DNA of 32,000 nt from NCBI RefSeq assembly GCF_000621645.1, contig NZ_JHXR01000014.1:136748-168747 (forward strand), written 5' to 3'. A model generated the notes under the pieces. That model worked only from the letters and a program-made list of their open reading frames with translations. It was not told the origin of the DNA and ran no database searches. This document shows positions 29,930 through 32,000 of this stretch, in pieces. The position numbers were made by a program, and so were the translations under genes. The stretch comes from Vibrio cholerae ATCC 14035 (GTDB taxonomy: Bacteria > Pseudomonadota > Gammaproteobacteria > Enterobacterales > Vibrionaceae). Position 1 is the stretch's first letter; every line of letters begins with the position of its first letter.

Positions 29930-30970
29930 ATGTCCGAAAGAGCTTCTTTCACACTCTTTATTCAAATCTTGATTATCGCCACCGTGGCTGCGGGGGCAGG
30001 GACGCTACTCTCCATCCCACTTTCTGAAATGTTTATTGCCTCGGGTTTGGTTATTGTGCTGCACAAGAAGCGTTGGCTAACTATTCATACGCCGCCGTGG
30101 CTGCTGCTGTTTGTGCAAGTCGTGCTTGGGATCAGTGTCGGTGCGACCATCAGTTTGAGTGAGCTAGGTACCACCTTAACCTTGCCGGTGATCGTGGGTT
30201 TGGTGTGCTGTTTAACGCTGCAAATCATCAGTAGCTATTTGTGGCTCACCAAAAAAGAGGGTTGGACGCCGTTTGAATCTCTACTCGGTGCCGTACCGGG
30301 TGCAATGGCCGCGATTTTGGTGATCAGCGAATCAAGCGAAAAGCCTTCCGCCAAAGTGGTCTATTCCCATTCTGTGCGACTGATGATCCTCACTTTGTTG
30401 GCACTGTTGATCTCCAACAGCGCGCCAGATAGCGCATCCGTAGGCGGCAGCCTGACCGTTTACACTTGGCTTATTTTCTTGGCTCTAGCGCTGATGAGTT
30501 TGCTACTGGGTAAAGCTTCCACCTTACTCGGCATTCCTGCGCCTTATATGTTGGCTGCGTTACTCATCACCGCCAGCTTTAATGGCTTTGCCACCGGCAT
30601 TGATATGCAAGTGCCGAAATGGATGGTGATATTCGCCACCGCTTTACTCGGCATTTTGATCGGCTCACGCATTGCCGATACCACACTGCGCGAAGCCATG
30701 GCGTATTCCCGCGCAGGGGTAATGGTCACCATGATTGGCCTTTTGGTCGCGGTGGGTGTCTCCGGTGTCTTTTCTATTTTGATCGATAAATCATGGGTCG
30801 TGCTGCTGCTTTCTTGGGTTCCCGGTAGTGTAGAAGCCATGACCGCTGTCGCCTTGTTACTCGGCATGGAACCGGCGTTTGTGATGATTAACCACGCTCT
30901 GCGCCTGTTGTTGCTCTATTCACTGCCCGCCATGCTGAAAAAGCAGTTGGAGGAGTTGAGGGGGAGATGA
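29930..30970 (+). CDS. AbrB-family (duplicated AbrB / putative 'AmoA-like') integral membrane protein
   Basis: 346 aa, polytopic. The internally repeated pattern, including LLGIPAPYMLAALLITA ... VPKWMVIFATALLGILIGSRI, is typical of the Gram-negative AbrB-duplication family. Confidence 0.65.
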   Translation: MSERASFTLFIQILIIATVAAGAGTLLSIPLSEMFIASGLVIVLHKKRWLTIHTPPWLLLFVQVVLGISVGATISLSELGTTLTLPVIVGLVCCLTLQIISSYLWLTKKEGWTPFESLLGAVPGAMAAILVISESSEKPSAKVVYSHSVRLMILTLLALLISNSAPDSASVGGSLTVYTWLIFLALALMSLLLGKASTLLGIPAPYMLAALLITASFNGFATGIDMQVPKWMVIFATALLGILIGSRIADTTLREAMAYSRAGVMVTMIGLLVAVGVSGVFSILIDKSWVVLLLSWVPGSVEAMTAVALLLGMEPAFVMINHALRLLLLYSLPAMLKKQLEELRGR

Positions 30971-31600
30971 TGGGGGAATTCTTGAGTAAGAGCTAGCTAG
31001 TGGATGGGGTTAGCTTAGAAGTGCCCCTTTTCTCGTTAGTAGTTTTGCTCATTCACATTCTGTTAATGCGAGTTTGACCTATGAAAAATTATTCGAAGTA
31101 AGTACGTTGTAATCATGATGATCTGCTCCAGCCTGGCTGGACATTTAACTAAGCGACTTTGCCATACCTTAGTTAATTAGCAAACATGCACGCAAAATTT
31201 TGTCCAACTTGGTGCCAGCCTTTTCGTCAGGCACGTTTACGTCCCATTTCTGTTATAAATCGCTTTACTATCAGTTAGAAAGACTTATTCAAATCACCTT
31301 TCAAAATCAACTAAATGCAATGTGACTTATGTCATATGCACGTAGAATGAAGGTTTGCTAATGTGGTCAGTTAATTAGTGCAGGTAACGGATTTGTGAAG
31401 TGTAATACTTTGCCTTGTTCATGAGTCACATCATGATTGAAGTGGTTCTTGGCTATATCGATCCTGCTGTAATCAATGAAGTGTGACACGGTGACTCGAT
31501 CCTTAGCATTGACCACTAAAGTGTGTGATTAGTCCTCGGGAAGAGAGTCCATGTTAATCGATATGTAATCAACTAATCCAACAGATAAGGAAGAAAAAAG

Positions 31601-31936
31601 ATGGCAAACCCAAGAGCATTTATTAGTTTTGACTTTGATCACAATGTCACTCAAAAGAATCTATTTGTAGGCCAATCTAAGAACTCAAAAACCCCGTTCG
31701 CAATTGAAGATTGGTCGTCGAAATCTTCGCTGCCCCAATCACAATGGGAAGCACTGATAAAAAGCAAGATTGGTAAATGTAATATGCTTATCGTCTTAAG
31801 TGGTAAAACTATGGCGAGTGCAACTGGAGTGGTTAAAGAAATAAAAATGGCTAAAGATCAAAATGTCCCTGTATTTGGTGTATATGTTGATGGAGCCAAT
31901 ACAACTAGGGAAGATGCGATTAAGTCTCTGATATGA
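31601..31936 (+). CDS. TIR-like domain protein (DUF1863 / MTH538 / Thoeris ThsB-type), short and possibly 3'-truncated
   Basis: 111 aa. RAFISFDFDHNVTQKNLFVGQ ... WEALIKSKIGKCNMLIVLSGKTMASATGVVKEIKMAKDQNVPVFGVYVDG follows the beta-alpha pattern and the FISF.(Y/F)D / VLIG / W-V..EI / GV(Y/L) landmarks of this family. AAGGA ribosome-binding site at 31587-31591. Recognised by eye only. Confidence 0.65.
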   Translation: MANPRAFISFDFDHNVTQKNLFVGQSKNSKTPFAIEDWSSKSSLPQSQWEALIKSKIGKCNMLIVLSGKTMASATGVVKEIKMAKDQNVPVFGVYVDGANTTREDAIKSLI

Positions 31937-31976
31937 GATCATAGCAACCATCAAAACAGCAAGGATGAGGTGACCG

Positions 31977-32000
31977 ATGAGTCATCAACTGACTTTCGCA
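31977..32000 (+). CDS. 5' end of an unknown gene (MSHQLTFA...), truncated by the window
   Basis: ATG 31977 is preceded by GAGG (31967-31970) at 6-nt spacing, 40 bp after the TIR-like stop. Only 8 codons are visible, so no function can be inferred. Confidence 0.35.

What the first reader, a model, noticed from the sequence alone, without database searches (positions are those of the whole stretch)
30971..32000. AT-rich segment with a ThsB-type TIR-like gene and an adjacent gene cut by the window edge: candidate defence locus
Core-like coding stops at 30970 and G+C drops sharply. My hand counts are 18/60 at 31261-31320 and at 31621-31680, against 31/60 at 30301-30360. After 630 bp with no ORF of 60 aa or more, a 111-aa ORF shows the landmark pattern of the DUF1863/MTH538 TIR-like family, which includes Thoeris ThsB. 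Glu80 in VVKEI sits where that family carries its conserved glutamate. A second ORF starts 40 bp later (GAGG, 6 nt, ATG 31977) and leaves the window. A TIR-like gene paired with an unseen partner in a compositionally foreign patch is typical of anti-phage islands. The partner could be a ThsA-type effector or something undescribed, and I cannot tell which from 8 codons.
Basis: partly seen in the sequence, partly recalled or inferred. Interest (0 to 1): 0.7.

Follow-up and report, generated by a model that had tools for sequence, protein, structure and literature searches.

The report
Broken TIR–caspase defence remnant with IS5
The AT-rich patch is the wreck of a known anti-phage system (type IV Thoeris, a TIR signal-maker plus a caspase-like killer) in Vibrio cholerae. 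A jumping gene (IS5 family) removed the end of the TIR gene and the whole caspase gene, and the "adjacent gene" leaving the window is that element's transposase.

Summary
G+C falls from about 0.52 to 0.38 after 30970, no ORF of 60 aa or more lies in 30971-31600, and the 111-aa ORF (31601-31936) passes Pfam ThsB_TIR (37.3 bits, cut-off 21.2).

The ORF starting at 31977 is the transposase of a 1195-bp IS5-family element that begins at 31909, inside the TIR gene.

Intact relatives (83-96% identical, 136 aa) head a cassette of TIR, caspase-like protease (315 aa), DUF6338 membrane protein and a small GYQP-repeat protein. The family aligns end to end with PsTIR, the validated type IV Thoeris TIR, and its Glu80 matches catalytic Glu79.

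In V. cholerae the 1738 bp between two CTAG sites of that cassette are missing, and the single IS sits exactly there. Lost are TIR residues 104-136, the whole caspase gene and DUF6338 residues 1-182.

V. metoecus carries a different candidate defence system (PDC-M18) in the same slot, so the slot is a variable cargo site.

Verdict: a decayed, almost certainly inactive remnant of a known defence system. It is ordinary.

One side observation may be worth pursuing. The DUF6338 plus small-protein pair is a separate module that recurrently sits beside TIR-caspase operons and is undescribed in the searched literature.

The parts
29930..30970 (+). Core flank: AbrB-family (PF05145) membrane protein gene, 346 aa. 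It is the left anchor of the variable slot.
   Evidence: It is 98% identical in V. metoecus and 92% in V. mimicus.
30971..31037 (.). Conserved 3' flank of the AbrB-family gene, containing a GGGG...CCCC hairpin followed by TTTT. Homology with V. metoecus ends at about 31037.
   Evidence: blastn of L001 8330-9437 against L015 6001-7108 gives 96.8%. Junction sequences are shown.
31038..31251 (.). Left part of the inserted island, AT-rich and without an ORF. No homologue was found in any fetched locus.
   Evidence: blastn against all fetched loci finds only the stretch from 31252 onward. Rfam gives no match.
31252..31600 (+). Non-coding leader or promoter region that travels with the cassette. It is conserved with intact cassettes L013/L014 and L007. 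V. cholerae carries about 100 extra bases at roughly 31475-31575.
   Evidence: blastn and alignment A1.
31601..31908 (+). Native part of the TIR (ThsB-type) gene: codons 1-102 plus 2 nt. It includes the catalytic-position Glu80.
   Evidence: 90.7% nucleotide identity to L013 351-692. Pfam and PADLOC matches. Glu80 conservation and alignment to PsTIR Glu79.
31601..31936 (+). The 111-aa chimeric ORF as it stands. Residues 1-102 are TIR. Residue 103 spans the junction, and residues 104-111 with the stop codon are read from the IS left end (C-terminal sequence REDAIKSLI).
31905..31908 (.). CTAG target site, the left copy of the 4-bp flanking repeat of the IS. It falls in the native Thr-Ser codons of the TIR gene.
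   Evidence: inverted repeat I2 with flanking CTAG. L013 has CTAG at the homologous position 689-692.
31909..32000 (+). The first 92 bp of a 1195-bp IS5-family insertion sequence. The left inverted repeat GGAAGATGCGATTAAGT lies at 31909-31925. The element continues beyond the window, to L001 11503.
   Evidence: 17-nt terminal inverted repeats with 1 mismatch, 1195 bp. (transposase). (a single copy of this end in the window).
31977..32000 (+). The first 8 codons of the IS5-family transposase (326 aa in full). This is the 'adjacent gene cut by the window edge'.
   Evidence: PF05598/PF01609 DDE_Tnp_1; NF033581, E 3.2e-108.

Best explanation
The window ends in a decayed copy of a horizontally acquired type IV Thoeris cassette. 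It sits in a variable slot between an AbrB-family gene and a SpoU-type methylase gene on a V. cholerae chromosome-II-like replicon.

How the intact system works, taken from the literature and not tested here:
- The short TIR protein senses phage infection and converts NAD+ into N7-cADPR.
- That signal activates the neighbouring caspase-like protease.
- The protease cleaves cellular proteins after arginine and aborts the infection.

What the sequences show here:
- A 1195-bp IS5-family element occupies the exact place of the 1738 bp that lie between two CTAG sites of the intact cassette.
- The deletion removed TIR residues 104-136, including the conserved C-terminal W-x-W-D-N-I helix. It also removed the entire caspase gene and DUF6338 residues 1-182.
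- What is left is a 111-aa TIR::IS fusion ORF, the last 13 codons of DUF6338 and an intact 56-aa GYQP-repeat ORF.

Inferred mechanism of the deletion: either recombination between two IS copies inserted at the two CTAG sites, or an IS-mediated adjacent deletion.

Inferred consequence: the locus no longer confers Thoeris immunity, because it has no effector and the signal-producing enzyme is truncated.
For: 1. TIR identity. Pfam ThsB_TIR scores 37.3 bits against a cut-off of 21.2, and PADLOC ThsB models match. An AlphaFold model of the intact homologue has only moderate confidence (pLDDT 62). Even so, its best Foldseek matches are TIR proteins: B. cereus TIR 8fz9, SpbK, SPARTA TIR and EcThsB.

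2. Link to type IV Thoeris.
- The family aligns over its full length with PsTIR, whose sequence was taken from Table S2 of Rousset et al. BLASTP gives E 8e-13 and the family profile scores 65 bits.
- PsTIR Glu79 aligns with Glu80 here.
- In every intact relative examined the next gene is a Peptidase_C14 caspase-like protein of 315-334 aa. It carries SGHG and DCCHSG motifs and an extra C-terminal domain.
- That matches the published architecture and detection rule.

3. The partner ORF is an IS5 transposase: NF033581 scores 361 bits against a cut-off of 140. The element has 17-nt terminal inverted repeats, is 1195 bp long and is flanked by CTAG.

4. Deletion mapping.
- L001 9964-10308 matches L013 351-692, and L001 11504-11822 matches L013 2427-2738.
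- L013 has CTAG at 689-692 and at 2427-2430.
- The reading frame after the IS gives LASEISHVELRKG*, the DUF6338 C-terminus.

5. All V. cholerae contigs read that carry this AbrB-family or TIR protein and are long enough to show the region carry the same remnant. Draft contigs break at the IS.

6. The slot is variable. V. metoecus has PDC-M18A/B there and V. mimicus has other genes.
Against: - The remnant TIR ORF keeps its leader, ribosome-binding site and catalytic-position Glu, and has no internal frameshift or stop. Residual expression or activity therefore cannot be excluded from sequence.
- The two candidate routes to the deletion cannot be told apart, because both leave CTAG on each side.
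- No ancestral V. cholerae locus with the intact cassette in this slot was found. The intact comparators are from other hosts (L013 is an unassigned Logan contig). The order of events (insertion, then deletion in situ) is therefore inferred.
- N7-cADPR production and phage defence have been shown for the Pseudomonas and E. coli systems, not for this 136-aa subfamily, which is only 25% identical to PsTIR.
Confidence: 0.87

Rival explanations
1. One reading: an intact two-gene defence locus, with a ThsB-type TIR protein and an unseen effector (ThsA-like or novel) encoded by the ORF that leaves the window.
For: The TIR profile match is real. The ORFs are co-oriented and 40 nt apart, with a Shine-Dalgarno sequence.
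Against: - The second ORF is an IS5-family transposase inside a bounded 1195-bp IS.
- Downstream there are only a 56-aa ORF and then core genes: SpoU methylase, TonB-dependent receptor, transketolase and transaldolase.
- No ThsA, SIR2, SLOG or Macro gene is present in this locus or in any intact relative.
Confidence: 0.01
2. Orphan but active TIR. The truncated 111-aa protein still folds and consumes NAD+ or makes a signal. It would serve an effector encoded elsewhere, or act as a stand-alone NADase or decoy.
For: - The ORF, its leader and Glu80 are intact.
- The Pfam model is covered over positions 1-99 of 100.
- Genomes with several ThsB genes per effector are reported.
- Another V. cholerae strain carries an intact TIR-caspase on a Tn7-like element, so a cognate effector could in principle be supplied in trans in some strains.
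Against: - The missing residues 103-136 include a strand and the last helix (119-131) of the predicted fold.
- They also include the segment LPxGLxxxRxxxWDWxxI...EGKN, which is conserved across the family and shared with PsTIR.
- Nine foreign residues are fused on in their place.
- No effector lies in the 10 kb on either side.
Confidence: 0.07
3. Simple IS insertion into a naturally short, stand-alone TIR-like gene, with no deletion.
For: CTAG is present on both sides of the IS, as expected for a simple insertion. Removing the IS gives an open frame of 104 aa ending in TTSE*.
Against: - Essentially all close homologues are 136-137 aa and continue as ...TTSNLPxGL... after the CTAG.
- The sequence right of the IS is the 3' end of DUF6338, which lies 1738 bp further along in intact cassettes.
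Confidence: 0.01
4. The cassette arrived already truncated, the deletion having happened in a donor. Alternatively, the deletion arose by a mechanism unrelated to the IS, which inserted later at the scar.
For: - No V. cholerae genome with the intact cassette in this slot was found.
- The cassette family is highly mobile: it occurs on conjugative plasmids and in Tn7-like elements, and is 83-96% identical across distant taxa.
Against: - Both deletion end-points coincide to the base with the IS termini.
- Both fall on CTAG, the 4-bp sequence that flanks this IS on each side. A coincidental later insertion is therefore unlikely.
- A deletion in a donor that already carried the IS is not excluded, but it would not change what the locus is.
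Confidence: 0.04

Closest known systems
Type IV Thoeris (TIR plus caspase-like protease; Rousset et al., bioRxiv 10.1101/2024.10.24.620036; Science 387:510, 2025)
   Same: - A short TIR protein of the PF08937 type, homologous over its full length to the validated PsTIR, with the catalytic Glu aligned.
- In intact relatives a caspase-like gene follows immediately. It has the His/Cys motifs and an extra C-terminal domain.
- The paper's Table S1 lists type IV Thoeris systems in V. alginolyticus and V. parahaemolyticus.
   Different: - In this window the effector is absent and the TIR is truncated at residue 102 of 136 and fused to IS sequence.
- The subfamily is only 25% identical to PsTIR and has not been tested experimentally.
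- In gammaproteobacterial copies the operon is accompanied by a DUF6338 plus small-protein pair that the published descriptions read here do not mention.
Type I Thoeris (ThsB TIR plus ThsA SIR2-SLOG)
   Same: The TIR protein matches the same Pfam and PADLOC ThsB models.
   Different: No ThsA, SIR2 or SLOG gene lies next to any member of this subfamily examined. The weak STALD hits (E 0.013 in Pfam, 4e-4 in PADLOC) fall on the TIR-like protein itself.
IS5 of E. coli and IS5-group insertion sequences. The properties quoted for them are from my own knowledge of the IS literature, not from a tool: 1195 bp, 16-bp terminal repeats GGAAGGTGCGAATAAG, 4-bp duplication of a YTAR target.
   Same: The element is 1195 bp long. 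Its terminal repeats are GGAAG(A/C)TGCGATTAAGT. CTAG flanks it on both sides. The transposase is a 326-aa DDE protein matching NF033581.
   Different: - It is a distinct Vibrio element. No copy covering 80% or more of it at high identity was found in the plasmid collection.
- Here it marks a 1738-bp deletion rather than a simple insertion.

Membership tests
ThsB_TIR / DUF1863 (PF08937) | Profile match above Pfam's gathering score | tested here: met
   37.3 bits against a cut-off of 21.2, E 3.8e-9, model positions 1-99 of 100.
ThsB_TIR / DUF1863 (PF08937) | TIR or flavodoxin-like fold | tested here: met
   The AF2 model of the intact homologue P0002 has only pLDDT 62 and pTM 0.61. Its top Foldseek PDB matches are TIR proteins: 8fz9 (E 3e-4), SpbK, SPARTA TIR and EcThsB 8wcf. 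Confidence is moderate.
ThsB_TIR / DUF1863 (PF08937) | Conserved catalytic-position glutamate | tested here: met
   Glu80 is at least 90% conserved in alignment A2. It aligns with PsTIR Glu79, whose E79Q mutant loses defence.
Type IV Thoeris | Short TIR protein homologous to a validated type IV TIR | tested here: met
   P0002 against PsTIR gives BLASTP E 8e-13 over 130 columns. The family profile scores PsTIR at 65 bits and EcTIR at 40 bits.
Type IV Thoeris | Caspase-like protease gene within one gene of the TIR gene (published detection rule) | tested here: not met
   This locus has no caspase gene. The IS is followed by a 56-aa ORF and then core genes. The feature is met in intact relatives L007-L014, L033-L035, L041-L043 and L124.
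Type IV Thoeris | Complete TIR domain, including the C-terminal W-x-W-D-N-I helix shared with PsTIR | tested here: not met
   The ORF diverges from the family after residue 102, and residues 103-136 are replaced by 9 IS-derived residues.
Type IV Thoeris | Infection-triggered N7-cADPR synthesis and phage defence | not testable with these tools
   This needs LC-MS and plaque assays.
Type I Thoeris | Adjacent ThsA effector (SIR2 or TM domain plus SLOG/STALD) | tested here: not met
   No such gene is present in this locus or in any related locus.
IS5 family insertion sequence | DDE transposase of the IS5 family | tested here: met
   NF033581 scores 361.4 bits against a cut-off of 140. PF01609 and PF05598 also match.
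IS5 family insertion sequence | Terminal inverted repeats and a 4-bp flanking repeat at a YTAR target | tested here: met
   The 17-nt inverted repeats have 1 mismatch. CTAG lies at L001 10305-10308 and 11504-11507, and the element is 1195 bp long. Because of the deletion, the two CTAG copies probably come from two different target sites.

The most novel reading that the evidence does not exclude
V. cholerae retains only the small gene and 13 codons of a two-gene pair: a DUF6338 three-helix membrane protein and a 55-60-aa protein with three GY(Q/I)P repeats. The most novel reading not excluded is that this pair is an undescribed module that cooperates functionally with TIR-caspase signalling. 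It could be a second, membrane-acting effector, a regulator of type IV Thoeris, or an independent new defence system.

Evidence so far:
- TIR and caspase genes are the only recurrent neighbours of the pair in 70 distinct metagenomic loci.
- 7 of the 28 loci with at least 1.5 kb on both sides have a TIR or caspase gene nearby.
- The four genes occur together in two different orders.
- Tn7-like elements carry all four as cargo.
Probability: 0.2. Interest if true: 0.55.

Novelty: new member of a known kind. Interest (0 to 1): 0.22.

Why it matters
For this window it matters mainly as a correction. A genome scan or DefenseFinder-style reading would see a "TIR domain-containing protein" in an AT-rich island and might count it as a defence gene. 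In fact the system has lost its effector and cannot work as Thoeris.

It is a clean, base-resolved example of IS-associated erosion of a defence island in a V. cholerae lineage. It also identifies the AbrB-SpoU interval as a cargo slot that holds different defence candidates in sister species.

The only lead with wider value is the recurrent pairing of DUF6338 plus a GYQP-repeat mini-protein with type IV Thoeris. No paper in the searched library mentions it.

Tried and rejected
- ThsA-type partner: rejected. The extended locus and all relatives lack SIR2, SLOG or Macro genes.
- Simple IS insertion: rejected by junction mapping.
- Sequence search of the PDB with the TIR and caspase proteins: no informative relatives. 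The best hits were CTP synthase at E 0.16 and GSU0716 at E 0.008.
- Rfam scan of the island: only a chance miRNA-family hit at E 0.09, far below that family's gathering score.
- Promoter and terminator consensus scan: no more sites than in shuffled sequence.
- Naming the IS from the plasmid collection: only partial matches of 80% identity or less.
- Searching E. coli complete genomes for the cassette DNA: essentially absent, with one 145-bp hit in a plasmid caspase gene.
- Integron cassette idea:
  - I considered that the hairpin after the small ORF, and the shared TCTAAC...GTTTYTGTCCATAAACG motif at the right boundary in V. cholerae, V. metoecus and L013/L008, might be an attC-like recombination site.
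  - The order and spacing of the core-like motifs do not fit a classical attC, and no integrase is nearby.
  - I left this unresolved.
- Left 215 bp of the island (31038-31251): no homologue in any fetched locus.
- DUF6338 and the small protein: no PADLOC, PHROG or NCBIfam hits, and no Pfam hit for the small protein.
- Locus tags: literature look-ups suggest VCA0627 is the methylase and VCA0628 lies about 1.7 kb away. That is consistent with an N16961-like chromosome II, but I did not verify the tags against an annotated record.

Full report
**Observation**

I re-read 30200-32000 and listed ORFs and composition.
- The AbrB-family ORF (PF05145, E 1.6e-54) stops at 30970.
- G+C in 300-nt windows drops from 0.51-0.53 to 0.37-0.39.
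- No ORF of 60 aa or more lies between 30971 and 31600 on either strand.
- The 111-aa ORF at 31601-31936 and the ATG at 31977, preceded by GAGG and 6 nt, are as described.

**Identity of the 111-aa ORF**

- It passes Pfam ThsB_TIR (PF08937) at 37.3 bits against a gathering score of 21.2, over model positions 1-99 of 100.
- It matches four PADLOC ThsB models, best E 1.5e-8. NCBIfam gives nothing.
- Glu80 is nearly invariant in a 29-sequence alignment reaching 29% identity.
- An AlphaFold model of the intact homologue has moderate quality (pLDDT 62, pTM 0.61). Its topology alternates strands and helices.
- Its best Foldseek matches in the PDB are bacterial TIR proteins: B. cereus TIR 8fz9, SpbK, SPARTA TIR, TIR-STING and EcThsB.

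The TIR-like call is therefore supported.

**What lies beyond the window**

- The exact protein occurs on about 1.07-Mb NCBI replicons. A source names it a TIR domain-containing protein of Vibrio cholerae.
- L001 is identical to the window tail, with an offset of 21600.
- The ORF that leaves the window is a 326-aa DDE transposase. It matches PF01609 and PF05598 and NCBIfam IS5 family NF033581 at 361 bits against a cut-off of 140.
- The repeat search found 17-nt terminal inverted repeats, GGAAGATGCGATTAAGT and ACTTAATCGCAGCTTCC.
- These bound a 1195-bp element (L001 10309-11503, window 31909 onward) flanked on both sides by CTAG.
- The IS therefore begins inside the TIR ORF. Residues 104-111 and the stop codon of the 111-aa protein are read from the IS left end.
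- After the IS come a 56-aa ORF, a hairpin, a G+C-rich inverted repeat and then core genes: SpoU-type methylase, TonB-dependent receptor, transketolase and transaldolase.

No effector gene is present.

**What the gene looked like before**

- A search of 5.8 billion proteins found 2632 relatives.
- The best 120 are 83-99% identical, and almost all are 136-137 aa. They come from Vibrio, Glaciecola, Agarivorans, Nitrincola, Rheinheimera, Klebsiella/Salmonella and Aliarcobacter.
- They continue after ...GANTTS with NLPxGLxRNRTIxWDWDxIAxAIxQMMGEGKN, which V. cholerae lacks.
- In V. splendidus, V. anguillarum and two Logan contigs the gene heads a compact cassette:
  - TIR (136 aa);
  - Peptidase_C14 caspase-like protein (315 aa; Pfam E 3.7e-21; PADLOC 'caspase' E 8e-26);
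  - DUF6338 (195-199 aa);
  - a 54-61-aa protein.
- In the V. anguillarum loci the surrounding islands carry integrases, AbiEi, nSTAND, OLD-TOPRIM/UvrD and BrxC-like genes.

**Mapping the damage**

blastn of the V. cholerae island against the intact contig L013 gives two blocks:
- L001 9964-10308 matches L013 351-692 at 90.7%.
- L001 11504-11822 matches L013 2427-2738 at 88%.

L013 has CTAG at 689-692 (in the Thr-Ser codons of the TIR gene) and at 2427-2430 (in DUF6338). V. cholerae therefore lacks exactly the 1738 bp between two CTAG sites and has one IS in their place.

The frame to the right of the IS reads LASEISHVELRKG*, the last 13 residues of DUF6338. The 56-aa ORF is 98% identical to the small gene of L013.

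Lost are TIR residues 104-136, the whole caspase gene and DUF6338 residues 1-182. In the model, the lost TIR segment contains a strand and the terminal helix 119-131.

Both end-points coincide with the IS termini and both fall on CTAG, the 4-bp sequence that flanks this IS. YTAR as the preferred IS5-group target is my own knowledge of the IS literature. I therefore infer an IS-associated deletion. It arose either by recombination between two directly oriented copies or by adjacent deletion. The two routes cannot be distinguished from this sequence.

**Which known system**

- The TIR makes N7-cADPR on infection. The protease, which has an uncharacterised C-terminal domain, then cleaves proteins after arginine and aborts infection.
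- The E79Q (TIR) and C129A (caspase) mutants lose defence.
- Their detection rule is a caspase profile plus PF13676 or PF08937 within one gene.
- I translated PsTIR from their Table S2. It aligns end to end with this family: 25% identity, BLASTP E 8e-13, 65 bits against the family profile.
- Glu79 aligns with Glu80, and the C-terminal W-x-W-D-N-I-A motif is shared.
- The cassette caspase has SGHG at residue 78 and DCCHSG at residue 124, plus about 130 extra C-terminal residues.
- Their Table S1 lists type IV Thoeris systems in V. alginolyticus and V. parahaemolyticus.

I file the intact family under type IV Thoeris. The V. cholerae locus fails two defining features, the adjacent effector and a complete TIR domain. 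It is a remnant and not a member in working order.

**Is it an insertion?**

- The AbrB-family protein recovered the orthologous regions of sister species.
- In V. metoecus, homology ends 67 bp after the AbrB stop (window about 31037) and resumes about 65 bp after the stop of the small ORF (L001 about 11794).
- The 2.5 kb in between encode a PADLOC PDC-M18A protein (E 3e-37) and a split PDC-M18B.
- V. mimicus has other genes after the AbrB-family gene.
- The cassette is AT-rich in every host examined, with G+C of 0.32-0.41.

Every V. cholerae contig read that carries the same AbrB-family protein and extends far enough carries the same remnant, and draft assemblies break at the IS.

**Mobility**

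Relatives of the TIR protein lie on plasmids (30 records, 18 of them typed conjugative) of Proteus, Providencia, Plesiomonas, Paenarthrobacter, Bacillus and Enterococcus. In Proteus plasmid pPp47, and in another V. cholerae strain, the four genes are cargo of a Tn7-like element. There the order is DUF6338, small gene, TIR, caspase.

**Side observation**

- Aliarcobacter, Plesiomonas and B. subtilis copies have TIR plus caspase without DUF6338. The core system is therefore two genes.
- DUF6338 has three N-terminal hydrophobic helices.
- Eighty metagenomic loci were retrieved with a DUF6338 alignment. The small GY(Q/I)P-repeat ORF follows directly in 67 of them.
- TIR and caspase genes are the only neighbours that recur in more than two loci among 239 neighbouring ORFs.
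- They are present in 7 of the 28 distinct loci that have at least 1.5 kb on both sides.
- No paper in the searched library mentions DUF6338 or PF19865 in this context.

This is a lead, not a finding about the window.

**Verdict**

The locus is a decayed type IV Thoeris cassette whose effector was removed by an IS5-associated deletion. The adjacent gene is the transposase.

This is ordinary biology with good resolution, and interest is low. A modest residual possibility is that the truncated TIR retains some activity. A separate open question concerns the DUF6338 plus small-protein pair.

Noticed in passing
L013 1881-2649; L001 11504-11727 (beyond the window); L041 3149-3923; L124 6728-7502: DUF6338 (a three-helix membrane protein) and a 55-60-aa protein with three GY(Q/I)P repeats form a tight gene pair (67 of 80 metagenomic loci). 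Their only recurrent neighbours are TIR and caspase genes, in two different gene orders. No paper in the searched library mentions the pair, so it may be an accessory of type IV Thoeris or a separate defence module.
   Followed up: partly
L015 7100-9625 (V. metoecus, same slot between the AbrB-family and SpoU genes): The sister species carries a different cargo at the same site: a 380-aa protein matching PADLOC PDC-M18A (E 3e-37) and a PDC-M18B split into two ORFs. The slot therefore behaves as a defence-cargo hotspot.
   Followed up: partly
L124 1-8876 (V. cholerae GCA_003057775.1) and L041 (Proteus penneri plasmid pPp47): Tn7-like elements (TnsB/C/D/E genes in L124; TnsD and TnsE within the stretch read of pPp47) carry DUF6338, the small gene, TIR and caspase as cargo. 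Another V. cholerae strain thus holds a near-intact copy elsewhere in its genome, with a caspase of 291 aa instead of 315.
   Followed up: partly
window 31252-31600: About 250 bp of non-coding sequence upstream of the TIR gene is conserved with other copies of the cassette (L013, L014, L007). It includes blocks such as GGTTTGCTAATGT...GTTAATTAnTGCAG...AACGGATTTGT. V. cholerae has about 100 extra bases. It could be a promoter/operator or a structured leader. Rfam gives no match.
   Followed up: partly
L001 11774-11830, L015 9620-9660, L013 2690-2740, L008 10330-10380: Each cargo ends in its own hairpin, followed by a shared motif (TCTAAC..GTTTYTGTCCAWAAACG). The V. cholerae / V. metoecus homology resumes inside that hairpin. 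This may be a recombination site for cargo exchange. It does not fit a classical attC.
   Followed up: partly
L001 11874-11988 (shared with L015 9700-9760): A G+C-rich imperfect inverted repeat (CCCCTTCTAGGGGAGGG...CCCTCCCGTCCTCCCC) lies between the island and the SpoU gene and is conserved in V. metoecus. It looks like a REP-like element. The Rfam miRNA hit there is chance (24.8 bits against a gathering score of 73).
   Followed up: no
L004 10309-12263 (GCA_000167935.2): In this assembly the IS appears as two overlapping partial copies (IS positions 1-844 and 312-1195, about 226 bp apart), which splits the transposase ORF. This is either a real rearrangement or a scaffolding artefact.
   Followed up: no
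P0002-P0120: The 136-aa TIR protein is 83-96% identical across Gammaproteobacteria and Aliarcobacter (Campylobacterota). The caspase is 76-92% identical across source-named Gammaproteobacteria, Lentisphaeraceae, Geobacteraceae and Desulfurivibrionaceae genomes. This points to very recent and wide horizontal spread of this type IV Thoeris subfamily.
   Followed up: partly
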